Positions 3,893-25,336 of a DNA stretch of 64,000 nucleotides are shown here, in pieces. Positions within the stretch are counted from its first letter, which is position 1; the number at the start of each line of letters is the position of its first letter. A model generated the notes under the pieces. The model had not been told where the DNA came from. It was given only the letters and a program-made list of their open reading frames with translations, and made no database searches. The position numbers and the translations under genes were made by a program. This DNA comes from a virus (lineage: Duplodnaviria; Caudoviricetes). The DNA lies in IMG/VR virus record IMGVR_UViG_3300011989_000257, positions 288,001-352,000 of that record. One strand, written 5' to 3'.

Positions 3893-4042
3893 GGAAACGT
3901 TTTTTTGTTTATTGATACTGCTCTAGCCAACTGAGCTACCGCCACATATTAGTTGTTGTATTATAGAGTGGCGGGTGGGATTCGAACCCACGACCCGTAG
4001 CTTGGAATGCTTTGTAAACGAATAACCTTGCTGCACGTTTCC
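3893..4042 (-). ncRNA. CAGCA-stem element 4: circularly permuted Gly-like tRNA body opened at the anticodon arm
   Basis: GGAAACGT-GCAGCAA ... TTCCAA-GCTAC-GGGTC-GTGGGTTCGAATCCCAC-CCGCCAC-linker-GTGGCGG-TAGCTCAGTTGGCTAGAGC-AGTATC ... ACGTTTCC. Confidence 0.85.
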
Positions 4043-4566: not shown

Positions 4567-5586
4567 TTACTGAACAGTAATTACAATGGCTGTTCTACCC
4601 TTCTCAGAGTCAACACCCTTACCTTCTGCACTAGCAACCTTAATACCCCTCTTGGTCAGAAAGTCAGCAACCTTTGCAGCTCTCATTTCAGAAAGCTTCT
4701 GATTGAACTCCTTATTACCTTCTGGTGATGCAGTAGCAGTAACATCTACAATTGAATTCTCGCCAATCTGATTAAGGATAAATACAGCGGCAGGTGTCAA
4801 TGTTGACTTACCGAATTCAAATGGAACAATCCACTTTGCAGTTCCCTCATTTACAGTAACAGTTTTCTCTACTACCTTCTCTACCTCCTTAATCTGAGGC
4901 TCACGACTCTCGCACTCCGCAATCCTACCGTTGAGGTATGAAATCTCATTAAGCATAGCACCTACGTCATAAGTCTTGAAGTGGTGTGTACCATTACCGT
5001 TCTTGAAGTGATAAATAAATGACACATTAACTGCCAACTGTGCGTTGTGCTTGTCGAAATGGATATGACCAGGCTTGTTAAGATTCCAATAAACTGCTGG
5101 AGTTACAACAATTGAAGTTGCCTTATTCTTGCCAAGGTTAAAAGCAAGGTCAAGACCAGTCTTTGCTGTCATGTAGTTCGCTGATGTGTTCCATGTGTGA
5201 AGCCAACCAATACCAGTTACGGTACTAACCTCAAAAACACGTGGCGTACCATTATACCCCCCAAAGATATTGGACAAGTTAAATACCGCATTTGCGCCAA
5301 CATTTGTAGCCTTGATAGCAGTTTTAATGTCACTGAAATGGTTGTCATTCAGTACTGCCAAACCCTCTGCTTGAATACCAAACACAGGAGAAAAATCCTT
5401 CTGTACTTTCAGTCCTACATTAGTGTTGAGTGGGAACATTGAATTGAAGTCAAGAGGTGTAGAAACACCAGCGGTCACTCCAAAACTAATGTTGTCGAAA
5501 ACACGACTGTTCTCAGTCGCAATCTGTGCGTTTGCACTCGTAAATGCACTTACCATGAGTGCAAACATCAAAACAAATTTCTTCAT
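4567..5586 (-). CDS. OmpA-family outer membrane protein (Bacteroidota type)
   Basis: Signal peptide, beta-barrel-like N-terminal region, coiled linker, and C-terminal ASPEG..NQKLSEMRA OmpA motif. Confidence 0.8.
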   Translation of the reverse strand: MKKFVLMFALMVSAFTSANAQIATENSRVFDNISFGVTAGVSTPLDFNSMFPLNTNVGLKVQKDFSPVFGIQAEGLAVLNDNHFSDIKTAIKATNVGANAVFNLSNIFGGYNGTPRVFEVSTVTGIGWLHTWNTSANYMTAKTGLDLAFNLGKNKATSIVVTPAVYWNLNKPGHIHFDKHNAQLAVNVSFIYHFKNGNGTHHFKTYDVGAMLNEISYLNGRIAECESREPQIKEVEKVVEKTVTVNEGTAKWIVPFEFGKSTLTPAAVFILNQIGENSIVDVTATASPEGNKEFNQKLSEMRAAKVADFLTKRGIKVASAEGKGVDSEKGRTAIVITVQ

Positions 5587-5636
5587 AACTTTTCTTTTTT
5601 TTTTGATTTTTGTTTAAATTATTATCACTAGAAAAA

Positions 5637-5746
5637 GGGAACTTTATTTTCGGTGGGATTCGAACCCACAAGTGCATTAAGCACAAAAGATTTCAAGTCT
5701 CTCAAGTCAACCATTCCTTCACGATGAATACTTGCTGTAAGTTCCC
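5637..5746 (-). ncRNA. CAGCA-stem element 5: Ser(TGA)-like tRNA body whose acceptor stem is replaced by the conserved stem
   Basis: GGGAACTT-ACAGCAA ... D arm, AGAGA-CTTGAAA-TCTTT, variable arm GTGC-TTAAT-GCAC, GTGGGTTCGAATCCCAC ... AAGTTCCC. Confidence 0.8.
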
Positions 5747-5755
5747 ACATATTTT

Positions 5756-6079
5756 TTACCAATCTTCAAAAGGGAGGTCATCATAATCTACCTCCTTTCT
5801 AACACCCCACTTATATAAGTAATGTGGTATACCATCAACCAAATCCTTCCTAAAAGTAGGTGTTTGCATTTCAAGTCCTTTTCTAGTAAAGGTCTTTTCT
5901 ATTAATTCAAAAGCCTCAGAACAATATGGATATGTTGTCTCAATTTCAACCTTTAGAAACTGAACATAACTTAAGTCATTCTTTGACTTATCAATCGCCT
6001 CTTGTATCTTCCTTATAAAATAAAGACAATACTTAGGAAAATTAATATCATCCTTTGTTATTTTCTTATATTCGCTCAT
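5756..6079 (-). CDS. hypothetical protein
   Basis: 107-aa ORF ending DDLPFEDW. Confidence 0.7.
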   Translation of the reverse strand: MSEYKKITKDDINFPKYCLYFIRKIQEAIDKSKNDLSYVQFLKVEIETTYPYCSEAFELIEKTFTRKGLEMQTPTFRKDLVDGIPHYLYKWGVRKEVDYDDLPFEDW

Positions 6080-6240
6080 AACATTATCAAATTAAAAACA
6101 TCAACTATCACGTCTGGGTTGCTACTAGAGACCTCACCTCCACCACTACCTCTCCAGGAAGATAACCTGGTACATTCTTTCGATTTTCACGACCCCACCG
6201 TTTATTGGACTGACATGGTAACGATTATTTGATGTTTATG

Positions 6241-6313
6241 TCGAGGTGACAGGGCTCGAACCTGCGACCTCATGGTCCCAAACCACGTGCTCTACCTACT
6301 GAGCTACGCCTCG
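6241..6313 (-). tRNA. tRNA-Pro(TGG)
   Basis: CGAGGCG/CACCTCG-A; CGTGG-TTTGGGA-CCATG; canonical D and T arms. Confidence 0.9.
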
Positions 6314-6459
6314 ATTAGTTACCTTTAATCATAAGGTACTCCTTCTTCTTCTCCAGCATAGATATAAGGGTCTTCATTATCTTTGATGTAATCCCATTCC
6401 CCATATCTATCATAATAACCATCTGCACAAGCCATAATTCATTAATTTTTAAAAAAGTC

Positions 6460-6575
6460 GGAAACATTTTTTCTTACTTAGCTATCACACCTAATGGCGT
6501 GAGTTGGACTTGAACCAACGACCCTTAAATTATGAATTTAATGCTATACCCATTATAAACTTGCTGTATGTTTCC
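6460..6575 (-). ncRNA. CAGCA-stem element 6: circularly permuted tRNA(CAT) body opened in the D loop
   Basis: GGAAACAT-ACAGCAA ... GGTATAGC-A-TTAAA-TTCATAA-TTTAA-GGGTC-GTTGGTTCAAGTCCAAC-TCACGCC-ATTA-GGTGTGA-TAGCTA ... ATGTTTCC. Confidence 0.85.
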
Positions 6576-6643
6576 TTTTATGTTTTAGCTACATTTATTT
6601 TATCTTTGCAAAGATATATATTTTTTTTGTGAATTCCAAATTT

Positions 6644-7030
6644 TTAATCAATTTTTTTCAATGGAACGAACAAATCATACCCATTATCATCTTGAAAATG
6701 ATTTATTTTGGCATCTTGCCATTCACCGAATTTATATCTTTTATATTCAAAGCACTTGCCATTCCAAGTTGCTTTATCCGCATTTCTGCAATCACCTTCA
6801 TAAGTTGTACCAATTTCAAGTTTGTCCTTTGGTATTGCTCCACAACGTATGAGGTTTTTCACAATAACCTCTTCATATATATGAGGGTCATCAACCTTTG
6901 GTATACTTGGTATGTCATCAATTGTTTTGAATGGTTTTAGGTTTTTGAACCTCTCTATTCTTTCGATGTCTTCTTTTGCTTTTCTTTCACGAAGTTTTTG
7001 TTTTATTTTTTCTAATTTCTCACTTTCCAT
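6644..7030 (-). CDS. hypothetical protein
   Basis: 128-aa ORF with ATG start. Confidence 0.75.
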   Translation of the reverse strand: MESEKLEKIKQKLRERKAKEDIERIERFKNLKPFKTIDDIPSIPKVDDPHIYEEVIVKNLIRCGAIPKDKLEIGTTYEGDCRNADKATWNGKCFEYKRYKFGEWQDAKINHFQDDNGYDLFVPLKKID

Positions 7031-7213
7031 TTATCTAACCTCTATTCTATCTCCACATTGCGGACATGTGATAAACTTTCCCATATACGTTTCACCAGCG
7101 TATGACTGTACACCGTATGAGCATTCCTTCTCCTCAATGTCAGTATCATCATACTTCAGCATTGAGCCACAGCGATAACACTTAACTACATTTCCTTTAA
7201 TCTTCCTTACCAT
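7031..7213 (-). CDS. small zinc-ribbon protein (60 aa)
   Basis: MVRKIKGNVVKCYRCG...CPQCG; the upstream ORF extension overlaps tRNA-His. Confidence 0.7.
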   Translation of the reverse strand: MVRKIKGNVVKCYRCGSMLKYDDTDIEEKECSYGVQSYAGETYMGKFITCPQCGDRIEVR

Positions 7214-7236
7214 AACACTATATATTTTGTATTTTG

Positions 7237-7310
7237 GGGGCAGTGAGGGATTCAAACCCACGTAAACAAGTGCCACAAACTTGCGCCTAAGTCTCTCGGC
7301 CAACTGTCCC
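7237..7310 (-). tRNA. tRNA-His(GTG)
   Basis: G-1:C73 pair; CAAGT-TTGTGGC-ACTTG; T arm present. Confidence 0.85.
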
Positions 7311-7498
7311 ATATTTGAACAGTAGTATATACCATTACGAGCAGATACCATTTACAGTTACTTTCAAGTTGAAACCCATCTACTTTTATGCGCACTTATT
7401 ATGTAGTCAACTTCTTCCTTTACTTGTCTGTTCTTCTGAGTGGATTGAATTTTATTCCCTACTTGGGGAAAAACCGTGCCACCATCTAAAAAAGGGTG

Positions 7499-7581
7499 TG
7501 GACTGTATCGGACTCGAACCGATGTTTCGCAGTTTGCTACGCCTTATACCGCATTTGCTCACCTGGTTGCATCAACAGCCC
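7499..7581 (-). ncRNA. tRNA-like RNA with a 14-nt anticodon-position loop
   Basis: GGGCTGT/ACAGTCC-A; ATCGG-TTCGAGT-CCGAT; TGCGGT-(14 nt)-ACTGCG. Confidence 0.65.
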
Positions 7582-7587
7582 ATAAAC

Positions 7588-7707
7588 AGGAATCTTTTTT
7601 AACTTTCGGTAGTGTTGGGCTTGAACCAACGACCTCTTGGTAAAATCCAAGGCTCTAACCAACTGAGCTAACTGTCGTGCGTTATTACCTATTGCTGTAA
7701 GATTCCT
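7588..7707 (-). ncRNA. CAGCA-stem element 7: colinear tRNA body with degenerate acceptor and a 6-nt anticodon loop
   Basis: AGGAATCTT-ACAGCAA ... TAGCTCAGTTGGTTAGAGC-CTTGG-ATTTTA-CCAAG-AGGTC-GTTGGTTCAAGCCCAAC ... AAGATTCCT. Confidence 0.8.
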
Positions 7708-7710
7708 TTG

Positions 7711-7792
7711 TCTGGAGGGTTGGATTCAAACCAACGAACTCTGCTATCTCATCACGGCTAGTTTGCAGAACTATGCTGCCGATTCCTCCAGA
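7711..7792 (-). ncRNA. tRNA-like RNA (intact acceptor and T arm, aberrant D and anticodon arms)
   Basis: CTGGAGG/CCTCCAG; GTTGG-TTTGAAT-CCAAC; TTCTGC-(20 nt)-GCAGAG. Confidence 0.55.
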
Positions 7793-7952
7793 TTTGTAAA
7801 AACCATTCTACACCCAACACTTCCAGTTGGTTCCTACATCTACGTCTCTCTCCATTATGACCCATAGATTACACGATTCCGTCTCTAACGTCTCATAGGA
7901 TTATAAAGCAGGTCATCTGTCCTATGCCTTTTAGAACCTCGAATGATTTTTG

Positions 7953-8025
7953 TCAGGGAACTTGGACTCGAACCAAGAACAGCTGGTCTCCAAAGCCAGT
8001 CGTCTACCTATTGACGTACACCCTG
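7953..8025 (-). tRNA. tRNA-Pro(TGG), second and atypical copy
   Basis: CAGGGTG/TTCCCTG-A; loop TTTGGAG; one mismatch each in the acceptor and anticodon stems. Confidence 0.7.
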
Positions 8026-8154
8026 AGTTAAAATGCCAACACTCTAGAATTCTTGCATTATATCCTCTATAGTCTTATGCTGCTCTTATTGTAATTCCAT
8101 TTATGGATACGATTCAATAATTAGAGGTTGCCTAAAGACTTGTGTTAACATTTG

Positions 8155-8240
8155 TCGGAGGAGAGGGACTCGAACCCCCAGTGTTTCTGATGTGCTGGTT
8201 TTACAGACCAGTGCTAGTCCACCATCCTAGCTGCCCTCCG
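8155..8240 (-). tRNA. tRNA-Tyr(GTA) with C1:G72
   Basis: CGGAGGG/TCCTCCG-A; CTGGT-CTGTAAA-ACCAG; long variable region. Confidence 0.85.
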
Positions 8241-8277
8241 ATTAAGCATAGGTTTCTCAACCACAATCCTTTCCTTG

Positions 8278-8634
8278 TTACTTAAATTTATATTCTATAA
8301 CATAGACATTTTTATTACCTCTGCGGTATTGTTCAATCTTTACATCATTATACATTTCTTTATGTCTTTCAGTAAAACCGCTTCTGATGAACTCAAAAAA
8401 TTTTTTCTCTTTTTCGTTGTCTGTTACGATGTATATGTCCTTAAATATATTTGTTTCTGGAACTCTACATGTCATACTTCTAACCCCTCTGAACTTGTTA
8501 TTGGTTGCCCAACCACCTTGTTCAATAAGGCCAATCGTAAACTCTTCCCAAATGGGAATATCAACTTTTAAAAATAAATTTTGTCCAAATACATCTTTTT
8601 CATTTAAATACTCTTTTGTAATTGCTTCTCTCAT
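8278..8634 (-). CDS. hypothetical protein
   Basis: 118-aa ORF. Confidence 0.7.
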   Translation of the reverse strand: MREAITKEYLNEKDVFGQNLFLKVDIPIWEEFTIGLIEQGGWATNNKFRGVRSMTCRVPETNIFKDIYIVTDNEKEKKFFEFIRSGFTERHKEMYNDVKIEQYRRGNKNVYVIEYKFK

Positions 8635-8781
8635 TTGCTTCTTTATTTAGAACTACTAATGTAACTATTAATATCTTCTAATTCACCTTCAAGTTTAGCA
8701 AGCTTTTCTTTATGCCAATTAATCTTGTTTACTATAGTATTTTTTCTGTCGTTTAATATTTTTAAGTCACTATTATTCATT

Positions 8782-9219
8782 CTATTTAAATTTTCCTAGC
8801 CTTATAGCCTCAACAAGATAGTTATATACCGTTTCCCAATCTGTCTCGGCATCGAATCCGAACTTATCGTCTATTCCTACATTAAAATACGTCTTTTCAT
8901 CAAAGCAAGACAATTCGTTATTCTTTGTCTCGCTATTGCTGTTAACCATATCGAAGCTAATGCCATTAGCTTTAAAATATTCCAGATATTCATTTATCGA
9001 TTCCTTATGACTAGATGTCCAGAGTATGAGACTGATGTTCCTAGCATAACTCATTATCTGAAGTGCCTCCTTTGAGAATGGATACCACTTATGGTTTTCC
9101 TTCTCGTGGTAGCAAGCTTCAAATATCGTATCGTGGATGTCCACAAGCACATATATATGCTCCCAATTACGGTCTTTCATACGCTTGAAAGCGTTGTCGA
9201 AACTTTTCTCTATACTCAT
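8782..9219 (-). CDS. HAD-like hydrolase (degenerate motif I)
   Basis: VDIHDTI, LILWTS and GIDDK motifs. Confidence 0.6.
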   Translation of the reverse strand: MSIEKSFDNAFKRMKDRNWEHIYVLVDIHDTIFEACYHEKENHKWYPFSKEALQIMSYARNISLILWTSSHKESINEYLEYFKANGISFDMVNSNSETKNNELSCFDEKTYFNVGIDDKFGFDAETDWETVYNYLVEAIRLGKFK

Positions 9220-9236
9220 AACATTATATTATTTGC

Positions 9237-9306
9237 CACACTAAAATGGACTCGAACCACCTACTTCAGAACGCCGTTCTGCGTGCTACCGTTACACCAT
9301 AGGTGA
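9237..9306 (-). pseudogene. degenerate Gln-like tRNA with a 5-nt anticodon loop
   Basis: TGGTGTAACGGTAGCAC D arm; CAGAA-CGGCG-TTCTG; GGTTCGAGTCC; acceptor poorly paired. Confidence 0.6.
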
Positions 9307-9439
9307 ATTGACCTCAACTTAACCATAATCTCCACGAGTTAACATTGGAAACTCATAATGTGAAAATAAGCAAGAATCGAACACTGCTTTGTTGAATTTA
9401 CCACAATCTCGGTCAGCGAACGGAGTCGAACCGTATTCG

Positions 9440-9512
9440 TTGGGATTGAGGGAATCGAACCCCCACAAGCCAAGAGCCAGAATCTTGCGTACTACCTTTA
9501 TACTAAACCCCA
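9440..9512 (-). tRNA. tRNA-Gln(CTG)
   Basis: TGGGGTT/AATCCCA; CAAGA-TTCTGGC-TCTTG. Confidence 0.85.
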
Positions 9513-9628
9513 AAGTAAGCTGAAACTCTAGCTAGTAACGTATCATGGCAGCATCCTTACCTATTCTCTCCACCTCGCAGTGACGTGGGGCAATTTAGCC
9601 AATCAACGTAGTTTCAGCTATGTTGTAA

Positions 9629-9706
9629 GGGAACAATAAAAATTCGTTTATCTAAAACCCAAATCTAGTAACTAATTTTATCAATAATTACTTGCTGTAT
9701 GTTCCC
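9629..9706 (-). ncRNA. CAGCA-stem element 8: minimal form with an isolated Pro-like anticodon hairpin
   Basis: GGGAACA-TACAGCAA ... CTAGA-TTTGGGT-TTTAG ... TGTTCCC. Confidence 0.75.
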
Positions 9707-9876
9707 ACTATAAGCGTAGCAAGGTTACTAGATTTCACTCAAATGACTTTACACATTAAACGTATCTGCATGCACCGTACACATGGTAACCATACACATG
9801 GACTTAAAGAAACCTAATAGGCTCACACTGATTTAATTCTGTCCGTTTCTTGAGACTGTCCTAGCACTTCTTGCTT

Positions 9877-9950
9877 TGGTAGCGCATAGGGGAGTCGAAC
9901 CCCTCTTCTCACATCGAAAGTGTGGTGTCCTACCGATAGACGAATGCGCC
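9877..9950 (-). tRNA. tRNA-Glu(TTC), CCA encoded
   Basis: GGCGCAT/ATGCGCT-ACCA; loop CTTTCGA. Confidence 0.9.
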
Positions 9951-10101
9951 ATATAGTAAAAGGTCAGAGCACCATAGATAACTTCGTTTTCACAATTCGG
10001 ACTTACTTACCCTCATAAGAGGTACTATTTCTTCCAAGTAAATGTGCTGTACACACACATCTCTCATGCCTAGCTATCATCATCGAATGATTAACCTTTT
10101 G

Positions 10102-10174
10102 TATTGGGTACGAGGCTCGAACTCGTAGTCTTCACAGTGAGAGTGTGATGCCTTACCAATTTGGCCAACCCAAC
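10102..10174 (-). tRNA. tRNA-Glu(CTC)
   Basis: GTTGGGT/ACCCAAT-A; TCACA-CTCTCAC-TGTGA. Confidence 0.85.
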
Positions 10175-10353
10175 ATATGTAGTGTTTTAAAAGTGGAGGG
10201 TGGGCAGTTTGTACCTGCATTCTATGAGTAGTATAATCTACAAGTGTCCTAACATTTAGATGACCTACAACACACTTGAATTTATAATGCTACTATTTCA
10301 AGCACTGTTCGCATTGGCATTGAACCATCAGTGTGTTATCCCTCCAATTATGT

Positions 10354-10518
10354 TTATGCCCCCATATCACAATCTTCTGCTAGTCCGTTCTCAACCAAAT
10401 CAATATATGTCATATTGTCTAGTTCTTCGTCGGAATAGGAACTCAGCAGTTTGAGATACTTTTGGTGACGTTCTTTCTCTTTATTTTGCAATTCTTTTCT
10501 TTTTGAAATCCCTTCCAT
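10354..10518 (-). CDS. small hypothetical protein
   Basis: MEGISKRKE..., just downstream of promoter 10540-10574. Confidence 0.55.
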   Translation of the reverse strand: MEGISKRKELQNKEKERHQKYLKLLSSYSDEELDNMTYIDLVENGLAEDCDMGA

Positions 10519-10909
10519 AATATCATTTTTTAATTTCGATGCAAAGATATGAAAAAAAATTGAGATAACCAAATTTTTATCAAGCTTTTAACGTATTTAA
10601 ACAATTTAAGGGTGAACATTCCGTAGATTGTCCACCCAATTTCATTATTATACTTTGTTTAATAAAAAAGCTCAATTATAATAACAGAATGATACAAATC
10701 TACATTAGAATAGGTACATGCCTCCACGTCTTGGATAACCATATCCAAGTTCTCTAGGCTGCTCTTCTATATGTAGACTAAATGTAATCATATTATTAAA
10801 ATATTAAACTGTTTATTATAAATATATGTTATTTTCAAAAAATATCAAGTTTTATAGTGCAAAGATATAAAAAATATTTTTAATTTCCAAATTTTTTAGA
10901 GGAAAAATG

Positions 10910-11341
10910 TTATTCCGCATTATGTTTTGCCATCATTGCTTCAATCATTTCCTCTGTTAGTTCTTGATAGATATCAGTTCCCTTTGCAATACCATAGACT
11001 TCTTTTGTCCAACCAAAGACAGAGGTTCCAGTACTGCCAATCTTAAACCAAAGTTCATTTGTATGACTAGCATCTGAAATTTCCCATACTTGATGTACCA
11101 TAGGCCATGCAACACCATCTTCCCCTTTGAGTATGCAGAACACGCAATCGCCTCTTTTAACATCACGTGGGACACAAGGCATCACCTTACAATACTCCAT
11201 ATCGTTGATTAAAGGGGTTAGACTTTTACCCATTTCCCAATGATAGAATGATTCTCCATTTTTCAATGCTTGTTCCATTTCATAGGGGTCTTGTATTACT
11301 CTAAGTCCCTCTATAGTTTTTGGTTCATTTACAATTTTCAT
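10910..11341 (-). CDS. S24/S26 peptidase-like protein
   Basis: GKSLTPLIND...VKRGDCVF...VHQV pattern. Confidence 0.55.
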   Translation of the reverse strand: MKIVNEPKTIEGLRVIQDPYEMEQALKNGESFYHWEMGKSLTPLINDMEYCKVMPCVPRDVKRGDCVFCILKGEDGVAWPMVHQVWEISDASHTNELWFKIGSTGTSVFGWTKEVYGIAKGTDIYQELTEEMIEAMMAKHNAE

Positions 11342-11346
11342 ATTTA

Positions 11347-12915
11347 CTAAAGTTTTAGAATATCAAAAATACTATTATTATTTTTATCTGTTACAGTAAA
11401 GCCATTGCCCATTAACTTGAACATTTTGTTTAAGTCATAGTTAAGCCCTTTAATTGAAGTGTCAAGAGCATCGAAATAAGCATCAAGCCCATCCATATAT
11501 AAGTTAAGTGAACTTATTCCGTTCTCTATTTTAATGTCTGGCATTTTAGGCAGTGATGGGGTTTTAATGTTATATTCCTTCATTTTGTTTATTGTTTCTT
11601 CCACCAAAGCCCTTTTTTCCCTAAGCCTTTTTTCCTCTTCTGCTATTCTTTTTTGCCTCTCTTTTTCTTCTCTTTCAATCCTCTCTTGCCTAGCTTTTTC
11701 TTTTCTAGCCTTTTCAGCCTCATATTCCTCAATGGTATATGCCCCCAATTCATCCCAAGCAATCTTGAAATGGTCATTTGGGTTAAATCCTTCAAGGAAA
11801 TGTCTTTCCACACCATTTTTACCATCTATGGAAAGTGGGTCGTTTATGTTTTTGGCAAACTTTATGAGCAAATATACTGTATCATCTTCTGAAATAAAAT
11901 TACCGTGATTATAATTCAAAATGCTAGGATATGCTATTTGAACATCTAGTCTTGTATTTGCTGGAATCATAAGTCCATTTTTCTTCTCTCCACTAGGCTT
12001 TTCATATACTATTGGTTCATCACTTACAATTCTGAGTGTTTTTACAAATTTTTCCTCTTTGATAAGTTTTCCACTAGGTGTTACAACATAACCATCAGTA
12101 TAATCCTTAAACCCACTTAATTTCAGTAATACATATCTGATAGTATTGTCAATATCACTAGTTGGAGTTGTACCTAAATTAGTTTTATCAAAGGGTATAT
12201 CATCCTTAACTCGTTTCCAATTAAGATGTTTTGGGAATAACTGCAAGCCATTCTCATATTCGATACCCATACATTCGCAATCATGTTTTGACAAAGTAAA
12301 TATTTTATCTTGGTATCCTCCTACTTGTTTAACAATTACAGAATTTATGTTAATGCCATCATATTCATCATGTATGCCAACGAGTTCGTATATCTTTTCA
12401 GGCATTTCAAACCCTTCACAAGAAACGCCACTCAACGCATATTTTTCGCCTTTTATAAATTTAGGCACATAGTTTGCATCCTCATTAACGACACCCATAT
12501 CAGTAAAATCCACTGCTTCAAATAATTCTTTTGGCTGAATGAATAGATTTTCGATATGTTCATTATTTGATGGCATGTTCATTTTCTTTTTGGTTTGCGA
12601 AAAATCAGCATCTACCATTTCAGAAATACCTTTTATTAGGCTGTCAGATAATTTCATAGAGTTCGTTTTTGTATTCCACATAGGGTCATGAATTAATTCG
12701 GATAATTTAACAGTTATCTCTCTATTATCTAATGCATTTTTCAAATGTATAGAATCACTTGTGACATATGCATCAGAAACAATCCAATCGTCACTTAGGA
12801 CGATTGGAACTTGTTCTATATTGTTAACATTATATACTTTAACCATATGCATTTTATATCCTTTTGGTACATTTGCAAATGGTCTACGTACTTTTGGTGG
12901 TGTTGGCTTACCCAT
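11347..12915 (-). CDS. hypothetical protein with C-terminal coiled coil
   Basis: 522-aa ORF with an E/K/R-rich segment. Confidence 0.8.
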   Translation of the reverse strand: MGKPTPPKVRRPFANVPKGYKMHMVKVYNVNNIEQVPIVLSDDWIVSDAYVTSDSIHLKNALDNREITVKLSELIHDPMWNTKTNSMKLSDSLIKGISEMVDADFSQTKKKMNMPSNNEHIENLFIQPKELFEAVDFTDMGVVNEDANYVPKFIKGEKYALSGVSCEGFEMPEKIYELVGIHDEYDGININSVIVKQVGGYQDKIFTLSKHDCECMGIEYENGLQLFPKHLNWKRVKDDIPFDKTNLGTTPTSDIDNTIRYVLLKLSGFKDYTDGYVVTPSGKLIKEEKFVKTLRIVSDEPIVYEKPSGEKKNGLMIPANTRLDVQIAYPSILNYNHGNFISEDDTVYLLIKFAKNINDPLSIDGKNGVERHFLEGFNPNDHFKIAWDELGAYTIEEYEAEKARKEKARQERIEREEKERQKRIAEEEKRLREKRALVEETINKMKEYNIKTPSLPKMPDIKIENGISSLNLYMDGLDAYFDALDTSIKGLNYDLNKMFKLMGNGFTVTDKNNNSIFDILKL

Positions 12916-15640: not shown

Positions 15641-17005
15641 TTAGAAGAACTTTTTCTTATCCTCTGCTGCCTTGATGTTCATCTTTGGCTTCATGAAGAA
15701 CTTGATATCAACTGTTGGCTCAATGAGCTTAACAATCTCATCCATTGGTTTGTAGGCATCTGGTGCTTCGTCTAGTGTTTTCTCGTCAGCAGTGGTGGTA
15801 TAGATACCTGCATCTGCCATCTGCTTCTGAAAGTCCTCTACGTTAAGCTGCTGATGGGCTTTCATCCTTGAGAGCGCCCTACCACAGCCATGCGGAGCTG
15901 TACAGTTCCAATCTTCATTTGATTTGCCTTCACATATTGAAATTCCATCCCTCATATTAAATGGTATGATTACTTTCTCTCCCTCATAAGCACGAATAGC
16001 ACCCTTACGAATCATCATATTTGGTGTACCCATCAATGCCTTGAAATCATAATCAATATAATTGTGAGTAGTAGCAATAAAATCGATTGGCTTACCACCA
16101 TCTGACATCTTTCGATAAATCTCAATCAACTGTTCATGAATCACCTCATGATTAAGTTTAGCATAAGTCTGAGCAATTAACACATCTACAAGATAGCCCA
16201 TAAGCTGGTCACCGTTCAAGTATCCTGGAATCTTACGTGATAAGTACTCCTCTCTTGCTGCATCAATCTCAGCCTTAATCTTCTGCTTGTCAGTATTCTT
16301 CTCCTTGACCTTATCCTCAAGCATCTTCATTTCCTCTCTTGAAACTACCATGCTTCTTGCTATCTTGTCCCAATAGTTGAATACTGCCAAACCTAGCTTA
16401 CGTGAGCCACAGTGTACGCACATGCAGTACTTACCCAACTCATCGTTGGCATCGTACTCTACGAAGTGATTACCTCCACCAACTGAGCCTATAGCCTTGA
16501 TAAAATCACCATAACCTATACGTACACGCTTACACCACTTCTCCAAATCCATTTCGTTGTTGAAGTAGATTGCATAATCAGCAAACTTTGGATAAAGAGA
16601 ACACAATCTGTCCATAGCCGAATTAACAGCCTTGGTGATACGCTTCCACTCAATCTTGGACTTATCGTTGATAGAGAAACCAAATGGAATCTCTTTACGA
16701 ATTTTGTGCTCAAACTCCTTCATCTTCTCCTCGACAATTGGTTTATCGAAGAAAGTAGCTGATATGGTACAACCGATATCGCAACCTACGTGCTGTGGAT
16801 TAACGTGGTCTGTCTCAATATTGACAGGACATGAGAATCCAATCACAATACCCTTACCATCGTGGCAGTCAGGCATAATTCTAATCTTCTTATCCTTGAA
16901 TGCCCTACAATCTGCTATACCGTATATGGTTGATATTGCGGTCTCCTCCACGTTATCAGTAAAGACCTTCACATCCTTACAATACTGTCCTTTAATTTCT
17001 AACAT
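15641..17005 (-). CDS. rtcB: RtcB RNA ligase (3'-phosphate/5'-OH)
   Basis: MPDCH, VGCDIGC, GGGNHFVE, VHCGSR, HNY, RKGA, PHGCGR and DEAPDAYK motifs. Confidence 0.95.
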   Translation of the reverse strand: MLEIKGQYCKDVKVFTDNVEETAISTIYGIADCRAFKDKKIRIMPDCHDGKGIVIGFSCPVNIETDHVNPQHVGCDIGCTISATFFDKPIVEEKMKEFEHKIRKEIPFGFSINDKSKIEWKRITKAVNSAMDRLCSLYPKFADYAIYFNNEMDLEKWCKRVRIGYGDFIKAIGSVGGGNHFVEYDANDELGKYCMCVHCGSRKLGLAVFNYWDKIARSMVVSREEMKMLEDKVKEKNTDKQKIKAEIDAAREEYLSRKIPGYLNGDQLMGYLVDVLIAQTYAKLNHEVIHEQLIEIYRKMSDGGKPIDFIATTHNYIDYDFKALMGTPNMMIRKGAIRAYEGEKVIIPFNMRDGISICEGKSNEDWNCTAPHGCGRALSRMKAHQQLNVEDFQKQMADAGIYTTTADEKTLDEAPDAYKPMDEIVKLIEPTVDIKFFMKPKMNIKAAEDKKKFF

Positions 17006-23653: not shown

Positions 23654-25336
23654 CTACAACTGAATGTAGTTAAGAATCTCTTGCGTAAGAGCCTTTTCAA
23701 CAAGTTCCTCTGCGGTAAGATTCCTTGCCTTTCCAGTCTTCTCATCAATCACCTTATCCTCTCCAAGCAATGTAGTGATAATACTTCCATCAAATCCACT
23801 AAGGAAAGTACATCCTGGTTCAATGCTCTTACCCTCAAAATGAGTAATTCCATGTCTTGAAACACAATCCCACCAAATGAATTTCATGTTATCCACAAAT
23901 TCCTCTGGGAAAACTGTCTTCAACGACTTCTTGGAGTACTCATAATTGGTTTCTTGGTTACGTGGAGAGTCATACCAACGATTAGTTGGATTAAACTCCA
24001 TATCACTTACCACCAATATAGTAGTAGGATACTGCTCCAATGGAATCTCTGGATGCTGTCGCCTAATCTTAATGATTTCGTCAACGGCAGATTGGAAATT
24101 TGTACCACCACATCCAACACTTGGAAGGTTCATTACCCTTTCACAGAACGACTCACCCTTCATGTCGTATGGATAAGAGGTGTTGTCGAACATAATGAGC
24201 TTATTGTGGAAAGCTCCAGTGTTAAGGCTAGAAAAGAATATTGCCAAAGATGTTGCAATATCTGAACAGTATACGTCCTTCAATCCAGTAACTGGCTGAT
24301 TCATTGAACCACTAGTGTCAAGGCAACACCATACATTCTCTGTAATCTTGCCGCCATCACGAGCCTTATCTACAAGTCCATTAAACTGCGCATCAATGGT
24401 ATGCTTAACCTCAATAGGTAGTTTCTTATTTGAAGTAGTATAATATCTTCTTGAACCAATACCGTATTCACGAAGTTTCTTTGAAAGCTCAAATACATAA
24501 CCAGTAAACTTAGCCACTGGCTGCTGCATTATCCATTGTGTGTAATTATCTTTCAAACCATGATTTGAAAGGAACTTACTAGTGACAAGTAAGTTCAATG
24601 CACGTCCTGGAATGTGATTCCAATTCAGTTCCTTATAATTACGAGAGCAAATCAATTTTTGGAAATCATGCGCCTTACCACTCACTTTCATCTTATTGTA
24701 TTCCTTATAAGAAATACCCATTTGATTTGCAAATGCCTTTGCCAAGTCATTTGTGATAGTAGTCCACTCTGTCTTACACTTACTCTGAGACTTGATACGA
24801 GGCATATACTTCTTAATCAAATCAACATGAGTGTCACAAAGCAAACCTTGTGCAATCACCTCAAACATAGCTTTTTGGTTTAAGCACTTAACATTCTCCT
24901 TAATGTCATAGAACATCAAAGTCCACAAGTCCTTCCAAGAGCCAACAAGTGGCAATGCCCAAATGTTCTTGTAGAATGCATCTGGTTGTTCTTGAGCAAT
25001 CCAAAGCAAACGCTTGAATGACTCATCACGAGCACCTTGTCCATTCTGAACCTTATCAGTCTCATTATCCGTGTTCACCTTAACCTTGCGAGTTACCATA
25101 CGCAAATAGAATGGGAAACGAAGTGCTGCTTCAGCATTCTCACCCCAAATGGTTGCTTGGTCAGCAAATACTTCCGCAAGTGTACGCCCTCTGAAGTTAC
25201 CAGCCTTACCAAATTGGTCAACAATTGCACTTCCAGTCGAAACAAGTGTTTTTGCTCCATTCTCTGTCAATGTTGAACTCTCGAAACCTACTGCATTAAG
25301 GAATGCGTTTGTCTTTGTCGCTGTCTTTGTATTCAT
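23654..25336 (-). CDS. DUF2828-like helical protein with C-terminal vWA domain (Ro60/TROVE-like architecture)
   Basis: TLTENGA..STG N-terminus, GQGARD, VGSWKDL, KYMPR; MIDAS-type DTSGSM, GGTNF and VSDMEF. Confidence 0.75.
   Translation of the reverse strand: MNTKTATKTNAFLNAVGFESSTLTENGAKTLVSTGSAIVDQFGKAGNFRGRTLAEVFADQATIWGENAEAALRFPFYLRMVTRKVKVNTDNETDKVQNGQGARDESFKRLLWIAQEQPDAFYKNIWALPLVGSWKDLWTLMFYDIKENVKCLNQKAMFEVIAQGLLCDTHVDLIKKYMPRIKSQSKCKTEWTTITNDLAKAFANQMGISYKEYNKMKVSGKAHDFQKLICSRNYKELNWNHIPGRALNLLVTSKFLSNHGLKDNYTQWIMQQPVAKFTGYVFELSKKLREYGIGSRRYYTTSNKKLPIEVKHTIDAQFNGLVDKARDGGKITENVWCCLDTSGSMNQPVTGLKDVYCSDIATSLAIFFSSLNTGAFHNKLIMFDNTSYPYDMKGESFCERVMNLPSVGCGGTNFQSAVDEIIKIRRQHPEIPLEQYPTTILVVSDMEFNPTNRWYDSPRNQETNYEYSKKSLKTVFPEEFVDNMKFIWWDCVSRHGITHFEGKSIEPGCTFLSGFDGSIITTLLGEDKVIDEKTGKARNLTAEELVEKALTQEILNYIQL

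What the first reader, a model, noticed from the sequence alone, without database searches (positions are those of the whole stretch)
5637..7707. Colinear tRNA bodies whose acceptor end is replaced or capped by the CAGCA stem (elements 5 and 7)
Seen: element 5 keeps the D arm, Ser(TGA) anticodon arm, variable arm and T arm but has no proper acceptor. Element 7 keeps canonical D and T arms with a mismatched acceptor and a 6-nt anticodon loop. Standard tools would likely call these pseudo-tRNAs. With elements 3, 4 and 6, the handle is attached at three different positions on the tRNA, which suggests selection to expose different tRNA surfaces.
Basis: partly seen in the sequence, partly recalled or inferred. 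Interest (0 to 1): 0.7.

Follow-up and report, generated by a model that had tools for sequence, protein, structure and literature searches.

The report
tRNA look-alikes clamped on Ro60-type handle
Two small RNA genes in a 412-kb phage are tRNA-shaped bodies whose amino-acid-accepting end is locked into a conserved stem-and-bulge "handle". That handle marks the RNA partners of a phage Ro60-like protein, so they are most likely tRNA mimics, not working tRNAs.

Summary
Both observations are confirmed. Element 5 (5637-5746, minus strand) is a class-II tRNA body with a Ser-UGA loop, in normal order, and only 3 base pairs of its acceptor stem remain. Element 7 (7589-7706, minus strand) is a cloverleaf with a 5/7 acceptor, no nucleotide 26 and a 6-nt AUUUUA loop.

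Each is enclosed by an 8-bp stem followed by ACAGCAA. They belong to a 12-copy, one-strand family in this genome.

Relatives show selection, not decay:
- Six element-5 homologues all lack acceptor pairs 1-4. Other arms show compensatory changes, and the six carry six different anticodons.
- All 13 handle-bound element-7 copies have an internal acceptor mismatch. Free-standing copies in other phages have intact acceptors.

A 560-aa protein (23654-25336) has a Ro60 fold. In five of five cultured phages inspected and in two metagenomic phages, stem+ACAGCAA RNAs lie beside its homologue on the same strand.

Best reading: Y-RNA-like tRNA mimics that stay on the handle, a new variant of a known kind. 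Binding, ends and function are untested.

Earlier scan notes cover this same family in overlapping windows of this genome, not in other DNA.

The parts
5637..5746 (-). Element 5, whole: handle plus a colinear class-II tRNA-like body with no acceptor top
5739..5746 (-). Element 5 handle, 5' strand GGGAACTT
   Evidence: Pairs with 5637-5644. Pair 1 is A-U in L095 and G-C in the others.
5731..5738 (-). Element 5 ACAGCAAG bulge
   Evidence: ACAGCAA is invariant in the six homologues.
5645..5728 (-). Element 5 tRNA-like body (D arm, UGA loop, variable arm, T arm, 3-bp acceptor remnant)
   Evidence: ARAGORN; Rfam tRNA 38.4 bits; pair table
5637..5644 (-). Element 5 handle, 3' strand AAGTTCCC, followed by TTTTT
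7589..7706 (-). Element 7, whole: handle plus a colinear tRNA-like body with a 6-nt AUUUUA loop
7699..7706 (-). Element 7 handle, 5' strand GGAATCTT
   Evidence: Pairs with 7589-7596. Pair 4 covaries, A-U in 3 and G-C in 7 of 10 orthologues.
7691..7698 (-). Element 7 ACAGCAAT bulge
7606..7677 (-). Element 7 tRNA-like body (acceptor 5/7, no N26, 6-nt loop)
   Evidence: ARAGORN; Rfam tRNA 41.0 bits
7589..7596 (-). Element 7 handle, 3' strand AAGATTCC
23654..25336 (-). 560-aa Ro60-fold protein (DUF2828 + DUF7788 vWA; phrog_850 'RNA-binding protein'), the candidate protein partner
15641..17005 (-). RtcB RNA ligase gene
   Evidence: Pfam RtcB, 3e-56
6460..6575 (-). Sister handle element 6, which lies between the two elements of this finding (permuted body)
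3893..4042 (-). Sister handle element with a YrlA-like permuted tRNA domain
   Evidence: Rfam YrlA model positions 23-86, 39.2 bits

Best explanation
Elements 5 and 7 are two members of a phage family of Y-RNA-like non-coding RNAs.

Every member has the same terminal module. A 6-10 bp helix is formed by the 5' and 3' ends. It is followed on the 5' strand by a bulged ACAGCAA, which faces an A-rich 3' strand. This is a stem-bulge-stem layout like the Ro60-binding end of Y RNAs.

This module is the RNA signature found beside genes for DUF2828/phrog_850 proteins. These proteins have the Ro60 fold (a ring plus a vWA domain), and this phage encodes one. It most likely binds the handle.

The variable module in elements 5 and 7 is a tRNA body in normal order, joined to the handle through a deliberately defective acceptor stem. 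The tRNA elbow and anticodon arm are therefore displayed. The acceptor end cannot easily be cut out, CCA-tailed or charged.

The RNAs would work as tRNA-shaped adaptors or baits on the Ro60-like ring. They would recruit or sequester tRNA-recognising proteins during infection, probably in RNA repair or counter-defence, since RtcB lies nearby.

Shown: the structures, their conservation and covariation, the protein fold, and the gene-RNA linkage. Inferred: protein binding, that the body is not released, and the biological role.
For: 1. Family and handle. There are 12 copies on one strand and shuffles give none like them. Dozens more occur in relatives, only on the gene strand. In 73 distinct copies there is A after ACAGCA in 57 copies, U-rich sequence beyond it, and 60-74% A on the facing 3' strand.

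2. Element 7. In 10 orthologues found by synteny, 90% of cells are paired and 11 pairs have changes on both sides. None of 500 shuffles reaches the observed covariation score. The 6-nt loop is kept in 9 of 10. All 13 handle-bound copies have an acceptor mismatch at 3:70 or 4:69, against 0-1 mismatches in 7 free-standing cloverleaf copies.

3. Element 5. Six homologues all sit on the handle. Acceptor pairs 1-4 are unpaired in all six. There are compensatory changes in the anticodon stem and the variable arm. The anticodons are UGA, AAA, UAA, AGA, ACA and GCA. A separate tRNA-Ser(UGA) call at genome 285909-285996 means the phage need not rely on element 5 for this anticodon.

4. Partner. The AF2 model has pLDDT 91, and the top 12 PDB matches are all Ro60/Rsr/phiLo Ro60 over the full length, E 3.5e-9. 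The MIDAS residues D340, S342 and S344 are invariant. The protein is present in 5 of 5 handle-clade genomes.

5. Linkage. Stem+ACAGCAA RNAs lie within about 1.2 kb of the homologous gene, on the same strand, in Zakai, VpaE1, LMTA-57, Lbo-JY46 and EFDG1. They lie 0.9-8 kb and 2-4 kb from it in two metagenomic phages.

6. Literature. The Ro60-like gp130 of phage Bas63 counters the Ppl defence (PMC11482910). Listeria phage CKA15 has three very abundant RNAs less than 2 kb upstream of its Rsr-like gene (PMC12282133).
Against: - There is no expression, end-mapping or binding data for this phage.
- Pfam TROVE does not detect the protein.
- The Ro60-binding motif GNCGAAN0-1G or CGAA is absent; ACAGCAA is a different motif.
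- In this genome the protein gene is 16-18 kb from elements 5 and 7.
- One complete 98.8-kb phage has the free-standing 6-nt-loop tRNA-like gene but no Ro60-like protein, so that body has a life of its own.
- RNase P could still cut element 7, because relatives have 6/7 acceptor pairs. M. smegmatis YrlA is cut by RNase P and CCA-tailed (PMC4201824).
- No colinear cargo was seen in the five cultured phages inspected.
- The copies in relatives share ancestry, so the counts are not independent events.
Confidence: 0.65

Rival explanations
1. They are precursors of unusual but working tRNAs. The handle is only a leader-trailer helix that stabilises or times processing. RNase P and a 3' nuclease then release a tRNA, including a special 6-nt-loop tRNA from element 7.
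For: Both score above the Rfam tRNA threshold. Free-standing copies of the element-7 body with perfect acceptors sit in the tRNA arrays of other phages. Element-7 orthologues have 5-6 of 7 acceptor pairs. The phage's other tRNA genes also lack an encoded CCA (by inspection).
Against: Element 5 has no acceptor pairs 1-4 in any of six homologues, and its anticodon is different in each. Every handle-bound element-7 copy has an internal acceptor mismatch, unlike the free copies. A 6-nt loop with no N26 cannot decode normally. The same handle encloses cargo with no tRNA features, 41-90 nt long. The other roughly 40 tRNA calls in the genome have no handle.
Confidence: 0.15
2. The cargo is decaying pseudo-tRNA with no function of its own. 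Only the handle matters, and the tRNA pieces are leftovers of insertions into or next to tRNA genes.
For: At the element-5 locus, sister phages carry only a hairpin plus a T-arm remnant, or a short stem-loop, or nothing. The cargo differs between orthologous slots.
Against: Compensatory changes keep the T, anticodon, variable and D stems in both families. The elbow nucleotides and the 6-nt loop are conserved across more than 10 phages. The acceptor defect is positionally conserved, not random.
Confidence: 0.08
3. The repeat acts at the DNA level, as a miniature mobile element or recombination site, or it is a transcription terminator. It is not a structured RNA.
For: The 3' strand is often followed by a T run. 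Elements sharing one handle carry different cargo, and the full element-5 body sits at different loci in two sister genomes. This suggests recombination between handles.
Against: The stem arms differ between copies and change in a compensatory way. All copies lie on the transcribed strand. The arms are 40-250 nt apart, unlike intrinsic terminators. Handle RNAs sit beside one specific protein gene in unrelated phages.
Confidence: 0.04

Closest known systems
YrlA-type bacterial Y RNAs with Rsr/Ro60 (Rfam RF02553; Chen et al. 2014, PMC4201824)
   Same: Both have a terminal helix formed by the 5' and 3' ends, with a bulged motif on the 5' strand. Both have a tRNA-like module with canonical D and T arms. 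Both are encoded with a Ro60-fold protein and RtcB, and often in or beside tRNA genes. A sister element (3893-4042) matches the YrlA tRNA-like domain.
   Different: The motif is ACAGCAA, not GNCGAAN0-1G. The protein is DUF2828-type and is missed by Pfam TROVE. In elements 5 and 7 the tRNA body is in normal order with the handle at the acceptor end, whereas YrlA is permuted with a closed acceptor. There are 12 copies per genome. Neither element reaches the YrlA gathering score.
Deinococcus radiodurans Yrn1 (as described in PMC4201824)
   Same: It is described as having a T arm and a possible anticodon arm with a 5-bp stem and a 6-nt loop. Element 7 also has a 6-nt loop.
   Different: I compared them only through the paper's text, not sequence by sequence. 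Yrn1 lacks a full D arm and carries the GNCGAA-type site.
Thermus phage phiLo Ro60 with Yrl1/Yrl2 (PMC12135203)
   Same: A phage-encoded Ro60 with neighbouring stem-bulge-stem RNAs that it binds. The phiLo structures 9kop and 9l5y are among the top fold matches of the window protein.
   Different: The phiLo RNAs carry CGAA and no tRNA body. Binding has been shown there, but not here.
Ro60-like proteins of cultured phages: Bas63 gp130 (PMC11482910) and Listeria phage CKA15_055 (PMC12282133)
   Same: The same kind of Ro60/Rsr-like gene next to a tRNA array: relatives of these two phages (VpaE1, LMTA-57) carry homologues of the window protein. Y RNAs were proposed there. I find stem+ACAGCAA elements beside the homologues in the relatives VpaE1 and LMTA-57.
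   Different: Those papers did not identify the RNAs by sequence. The cargo I saw there is short or permuted, never colinear.
Canonical tRNA genes
   Same: D arm, T arm, elbow nucleotides and overall cloverleaf. Both elements are called as tRNAs by ARAGORN and Rfam.
   Different: Element 5 has no acceptor top and a non-conserved anticodon. Element 7 has a 6-nt loop, no N26 and a conserved acceptor mismatch. Both are embedded in the handle.

Membership tests
Stem+ACAGCAA 'handle' RNAs beside DUF2828/phrog_850 Ro60-fold genes (family delineated here; not in Rfam 15) | Terminal helix of 6-10 bp formed by the 5' and 3' ends, with compensatory changes between copies | tested here: met
   Both elements have 8 bp. 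There is covariation at handle pair 4 in element-7 orthologues and at pair 1 in the element-5 homologue L095.
Stem+ACAGCAA 'handle' RNAs beside DUF2828/phrog_850 Ro60-fold genes (family delineated here; not in Rfam 15) | ACAGCAA placed 0-2 nt after the 5' strand, facing an A-rich 3' strand | tested here: met
   ACAGCAAG and ACAGCAAT follow the stem directly. The 3' linkers are GAAAATA and AAGTTAAAA.
Stem+ACAGCAA 'handle' RNAs beside DUF2828/phrog_850 Ro60-fold genes (family delineated here; not in Rfam 15) | Same strand as, and co-occurring with, a DUF2828-type gene | tested here: met
   The gene is at 23654-25336 on the same strand, 16-18 kb away. It is present in 5 of 5 clade genomes. The RNAs are adjacent to the gene in 7 other phages.
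YrlA / Y RNA (RF02553) | Score at or above the Rfam gathering threshold (69 bits) | tested here: not met
   There is no YrlA hit on element 5. The 22.4-bit hit at 7620-7764 spans a different stretch and looks like a chance alignment.
YrlA / Y RNA (RF02553) | GNCGAAN0-1G (or CGAA) Ro60-binding motif near the 5' end | tested here: not met
   The 5' region reads GGRAWCNU-ACAGCAA. The motif definition comes from PMC4201824 and PMC12135203.
YrlA / Y RNA (RF02553) | Permuted tRNA-like domain (T arm, closed acceptor hairpin, D arm) | tested here: not met
   Elements 5 and 7 are in normal order. The feature is met by sister element 3893-4042.
YrlA / Y RNA (RF02553) | Encoded within about 4 kb of, and on the same strand as, a TROVE-domain Ro60 gene | tested here: not met
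   Pfam TROVE is absent from the genome. The Ro60-fold gene is on the same strand but 16-18 kb away.
YrlA / Y RNA (RF02553) | Bound by Ro60 in vivo or in vitro | not testable with these tools
   Needs RIP, CLIP or EMSA.
Canonical decoding tRNA | 7-bp acceptor stem | tested here: not met
   In element 5, pairs 1-4 are unpaired in all six homologues. In element 7, 5 of 7 pairs form, and the mismatch at 3:70/4:69 is present in 13 of 13 handle-bound copies.
Canonical decoding tRNA | 5-bp anticodon stem with a 7-nt loop and nucleotide 26 | tested here: not met
   Element 7 has a 6-nt loop and no N26. Element 5 alone meets this feature.
Canonical decoding tRNA | Anticodon conserved among orthologues | tested here: not met
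   Element 5 family: UGA, AAA, UAA, AGA, ACA, GCA.
Canonical decoding tRNA | D and T arms and a tRNA covariance-model score above threshold | tested here: met
   38.4 and 41.0 bits against a threshold of 29.
Ro60 / Rsr proteins (for the candidate partner at 23654-25336) | Ring of helical repeats plus a C-terminal vWA domain with a MIDAS motif | tested here: met
   The AF2 model has pLDDT 91. The top 12 Foldseek PDB hits are all Ro60, full length, TM 0.43-0.56. D340, S342 and S344 are invariant in 68 homologues.
Ro60 / Rsr proteins (for the candidate partner at 23654-25336) | Pfam TROVE domain match | tested here: not met
   Only DUF2828 and DUF7788 match.

The most novel reading that the evidence does not exclude
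The Ro60-like ring plus a set of handle RNAs forms a modular 'tRNA display' system used in the phage-host arms race over tRNAs. Each handle would present a different tRNA face or anticodon loop as a bait, decoy or sensor for host tRNA-targeting nucleases, or as a guide for RtcB repair.

The colinear members would be the forms that expose a complete anticodon arm and elbow while hiding the acceptor. On this reading, the six different anticodons in six element-5 homologues reflect diversifying selection against changing host nucleases. The invariant 6-nt AUUUUA arm would be an uncleavable mimic of a U-rich (Lys-like) anticodon loop.
Probability: 0.17. Interest if true: 0.85.

Novelty: new variant of a known kind. 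Interest (0 to 1): 0.62.

Why it matters
Ro60 with Y RNA is a conserved RNA-surveillance particle, and the role of its tRNA-like module is unknown. Three results bear on that.

- Phages carry a second, widespread Ro60-fold family (DUF2828/phrog_850, found in 553 cultured phage records). A recognisable RNA partner signature, stem+ACAGCAA, lies beside it. The Y RNAs proposed for Felix O1-like and P100-like phages therefore become directly testable.
- In megaphages this scaffold has been loaded with tRNA bodies in several topologies.
- The colinear members show, through conserved acceptor defects and a free-running anticodon, that the tRNA shape itself is the selected feature, not decoding.

There is also a practical consequence. 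Such elements are currently annotated as tRNAs. Examples are tRNA-Ser and the undetermined 'tt' call here, and tRNA-Thr in phage Zakai. This inflates phage tRNA counts.

Tried and rejected
- Pfam TROVE search of the whole genome, also at E<=10: no match.
- Sequence search of the protein against PDB: nothing.
- Megablast of 5000-12000 against cultured phages: nothing.
- The Rfam YrlA hit over 7620-7764 (22.4 bits) does not follow the element's boundaries. I treated it as spurious.
- An exact search for element 5's anticodon arm in viral contigs returned only chance hits that show no tRNA or handle features, apparently in coding DNA. The D-arm pattern found the true homologues.
- The narrow pattern GGRRNYNNRCAGCAR found nothing in more distant phages. 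A general stem+ACAGCAA scan then did.
- Acceptor scoring from ARAGORN boundaries was mis-registered. I replaced it with scoring anchored on the D and T arms.
- I considered a kink-turn reading of the bulge and dropped it, because there are no tandem G-A pairs on the unbulged strand.
- I considered a circularise-and-ligate route as for permuted tRNA genes. It cannot apply to colinear bodies or mend a missing acceptor.
- Literature searches found nothing on natural 6-nt anticodon loops in phages or on DUF2828.
- I did not build a covariance model of the handle. The available aligner cannot right-justify the 3' strands across cargo of 40-250 nt.
Full report
**Setting.** The window is positions 288,001-352,000 of a 412,514-bp virus record. 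Its first 10.6 kb, read on the minus strand, is a dense tRNA array. ARAGORN makes 15 calls in the window and 42 in the genome. By inspection the array has Bacteroidota-type promoter motifs (TTTG ... TAnnTTTG), for example just upstream of 6575.

Element 5 runs 5746->5637 on the minus strand.
- It reads GGGAACTT, ACAGCAAG, a 2-nt linker, an 84-nt tRNA body, then AAGTTCCC and a T run.
- ARAGORN calls the body tRNA-Ser(tga).
- Rfam's tRNA model gives 38.4 bits and marks acceptor pairs 1, 3 and 4 as non-standard.

Element 7 runs 7706->7589 on the minus strand.
- It reads GGAATCTT, ACAGCAAT, a 13-nt linker, a 72-nt body, a 9-nt A-rich linker, then AAGATTCC.
- ARAGORN reports 'tRNA-??? (tt)'.
- Rfam gives 41.0 bits, with position 26 deleted, a 6-nt loop AUUUUA, and mismatches at acceptor pairs 3:70 and 4:69.
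- Both bodies keep the nucleotides that build the tRNA elbow: U8, A14, G18-G19 and the UUC(R)A T loop (read).

**The handle is a real, repeated RNA feature.**
- A scan for GG...RCAGCA whose first 6-9 nt are complemented 30-260 nt downstream finds 12 copies. All are on the minus strand within 25 kb (genome 272,672-297,706).
- Shuffled genomes give 0-4 weak six-base-pair hits.
- In 15 related loci from IMG/VR, every copy lies on the gene strand.
- In 73 distinct copies the base after ACAGCA is A in 57. The next bases are U-rich, and the 3' strand just inside the stem is 60-74% A.
- The layout is therefore helix, 5' bulge ACAGCAA, then a weak A/U helix. This is the stem-bulge-stem plan described for Y RNAs (PMC12135203).

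**Element 7 is under purifying selection as a non-decoding shape.**
- Ten orthologues were found by position, not by their anticodon arm. In their alignment, 90% of cells are paired and 11 pairs have changes on both sides. None of 500 shuffles reaches the observed covariation score, and slid controls collapse to 37-50% pairing.
- Handle pair 4 switches between A-U (3 copies) and G-C (7 copies). Four of the five T-stem pairs covary.
- The arm CUUGG-AUUUUA-CCAAG and the missing N26 are identical in 9 of 10.
- Acceptor pair 4:69 is unpaired in 8 of 10, and pair 3:70 in 4 of 10.
- An exact search for the arm found 30 viral contigs. When scored on the D and T arms, all 13 distinct handle-bound copies carry 1-2 internal acceptor mismatches. 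Seven free-standing cloverleaf copies in other phages' tRNA arrays have 0-1.
- The body therefore belongs to a wider class of phage tRNA-like genes. In this clade it has been built into the handle, and the acceptor is no longer kept intact.
- One complete 98.8-kb phage has the free form and no Ro60-like gene. The free form therefore does not depend on that protein.

**Element 5 is conserved too, but not at the same place.**
- At its locus, between a 107-aa ORF and an OmpA-like gene, sister phages hold the same handle. There it carries only a hairpin plus a T-arm remnant, or a short stem-loop, or nothing.
- Full-length homologues exist in five other large phages, directly after a tRNA-Met gene.
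- In the six-way alignment, acceptor pairs 5-7 are invariant and pairs 1-4 never form. The D and T stems are invariant.
- The anticodon stem and the variable arm show compensatory changes. The anticodons are UGA, AAA, UAA, AGA, ACA and GCA, within a conserved CU-NNA-AA loop.
- ARAGORN calls a separate tRNA-Ser(UGA) elsewhere in the genome. It is only 62% identical to element 5.
- The slot that holds the element in a sister genome lacks it here. The element, or its cargo, has therefore moved between sites that share an identical handle.
- An acceptor that is missing in every copy, plus a free-running anticodon, argue against a decoding tRNA. The compensatory changes argue against a decaying pseudogene.

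**The likely protein partner.**
- Pfam sees only DUF2828 and DUF7788. PHROGs calls it 'RNA-binding protein'.
- An AF2 model built from 68 diverse homologues has pLDDT 91. Its top 12 PDB matches are all Ro60, Rsr or phiLo Ro60 over the full length, at E 3.5e-9 to 9e-7.
- The MIDAS residues D340, S342 and S344 are invariant.
- RtcB is encoded at 15641-17005.
- All five handle-clade genomes that I checked encode the protein.

**The handle travels with this protein far beyond this clade.**
- Homologues occur in 553 cultured phage records: Felix O1-like, Herelleviridae, mycobacteriophages annotated 'Ro-like RNA binding protein', and others.
- I inspected five: Zakai, VpaE1, LMTA-57, Lbo-JY46 and EFDG1. 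In all five, 2-5 stem+ACAGCAA elements lie within about 1.2 kb of the gene on the same strand.
- In a complete 192-kb metagenomic phage whose protein is 35% identical, eight such elements follow the gene within 8 kb. In another phage, two lie 2-4 kb upstream of it.
- Rfam has no family for these RNAs.
- The background for this scan is about 4-7 hits per 412 kb per strand.

**What the literature adds.**
- In the Felix O1-like phage Bas63, the Ro60-like gp130 counters the Ppl defence system. Y RNAs among the neighbouring 'tRNAs' were only guessed at (PMC11482910).
- In Listeria phage CKA15, the Rsr-like protein is found in virions. Three very abundant unannotated transcripts lie less than 2 kb upstream of its gene (PMC12282133). 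This fits the three handle elements I see in the related phage LMTA-57. I could not check that they are the same regions.

**Reading.** Elements 5 and 7 are Y-RNA-like tRNA mimics on a DUF2828-type handle. They differ from YrlA in three ways:
- the motif is ACAGCAA, not GNCGAA(N)G (PMC4201824);
- Pfam TROVE does not detect the protein;
- the body is in normal order with the handle at the acceptor end.

In the five cultured phages, the cargo was short or permuted, never colinear. The colinear form therefore looks like a speciality of this megaphage clade.

**What remains inferred.** That the protein binds the handle, that the bodies stay attached to it, and what they recruit or block.

**Main rival.** The handle may be a removable leader-trailer helix, and tRNA-like RNAs may be released. 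The free-standing relatives of element 7 keep this rival alive. The conserved acceptor defects, element 5's variable anticodon and the cargo-free handles count against it.

**Earlier notes of this scan.** They describe the same family in overlapping windows of this genome. I re-derived the copy list, the fold and the RtcB call myself.

Noticed in passing
window 7712-7790 (-): A tRNA-like piece lies just 5' of element 7. It has acceptor CTGGAGG/CCTCCAG, T arm GTTGG-TTTGAAT-CCAAC and a CTGCAAA loop, but no D arm. Neither ARAGORN nor Rfam calls it.
   Followed up: no
window ~7483-7570 (-): A tRNA-like piece with a 7-bp acceptor containing G3-U70 (GGGCTGT/ACAGTCC) and a good T arm, but an aberrant D/anticodon region. 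It is not called by the tools.
   Followed up: no
genome 271,506-287,216 (upstream of the window): ARAGORN calls tRNAs with long variable arms for Lys(CUU), Cys(GCA) and Trp(CCA), plus a CUA suppressor labelled 'Pyl'. These are unusual shapes for those anticodons.
   Followed up: no
L025, L031, L038, L029/L043, L046, L047, L042 (viral contigs): Free-standing tRNA-like genes with a perfect acceptor, no N26 and the invariant CUUGG-AUUUUA-CCAAG arm sit in the tRNA arrays of other large phages. One of these phages is complete and has no Ro60-like gene. Their function is unknown.
   Followed up: partly
L097 5463-5719 (Mycobacterium phage Zakai, KX580961): Three tandem stem+ACAGCAA elements follow the 'Ro-like RNA binding protein' gene. 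The record's 'tRNA-Thr' is the 5' part of the middle element, and Rfam's tRNA model does not hit it.
   Followed up: partly
L098 6713-7489; L099 4654-4918; L100 6571-6922; L101 4395-4873: E. coli phage VpaE1, Listeria phage LMTA-57, Leptolyngbya phage Lbo-JY46 and Enterococcus phage EFDG1 each have 2-5 stem+ACAGCAA elements beside their DUF2828 gene. VpaE1 and EFDG1 (and Zakai, see the entry above) each include one element with a permuted tRNA body that keeps its anticodon arm.
   Followed up: partly
L042, read on its minus strand, positions 5706-5893 counted on that reversed strand: In this handle-clade fragment, the element-7 slot carries an Ile(GAU) arm with a normal 7-nt loop. A free 'tt' tRNA-like gene with a perfect acceptor sits 5 nt upstream of it.
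   Followed up: partly
window 6600-6640 (-), also ~2370-2400 and ~10540-10575: Bacteroidota-type promoter motifs (TTTG ... TAnnTTTG) are present at these sites. Elements 5 and 7 have none of their own, so they would have to be cut out of longer transcripts.
   Followed up: no
genome ~261,382-261,529: The region orthologous to the DNA downstream of the element-5 homologue in a sister genome (L080) is present here, but without the tRNA-Met gene or the element. This suggests relocation between sites that share an identical handle.
   Followed up: partly
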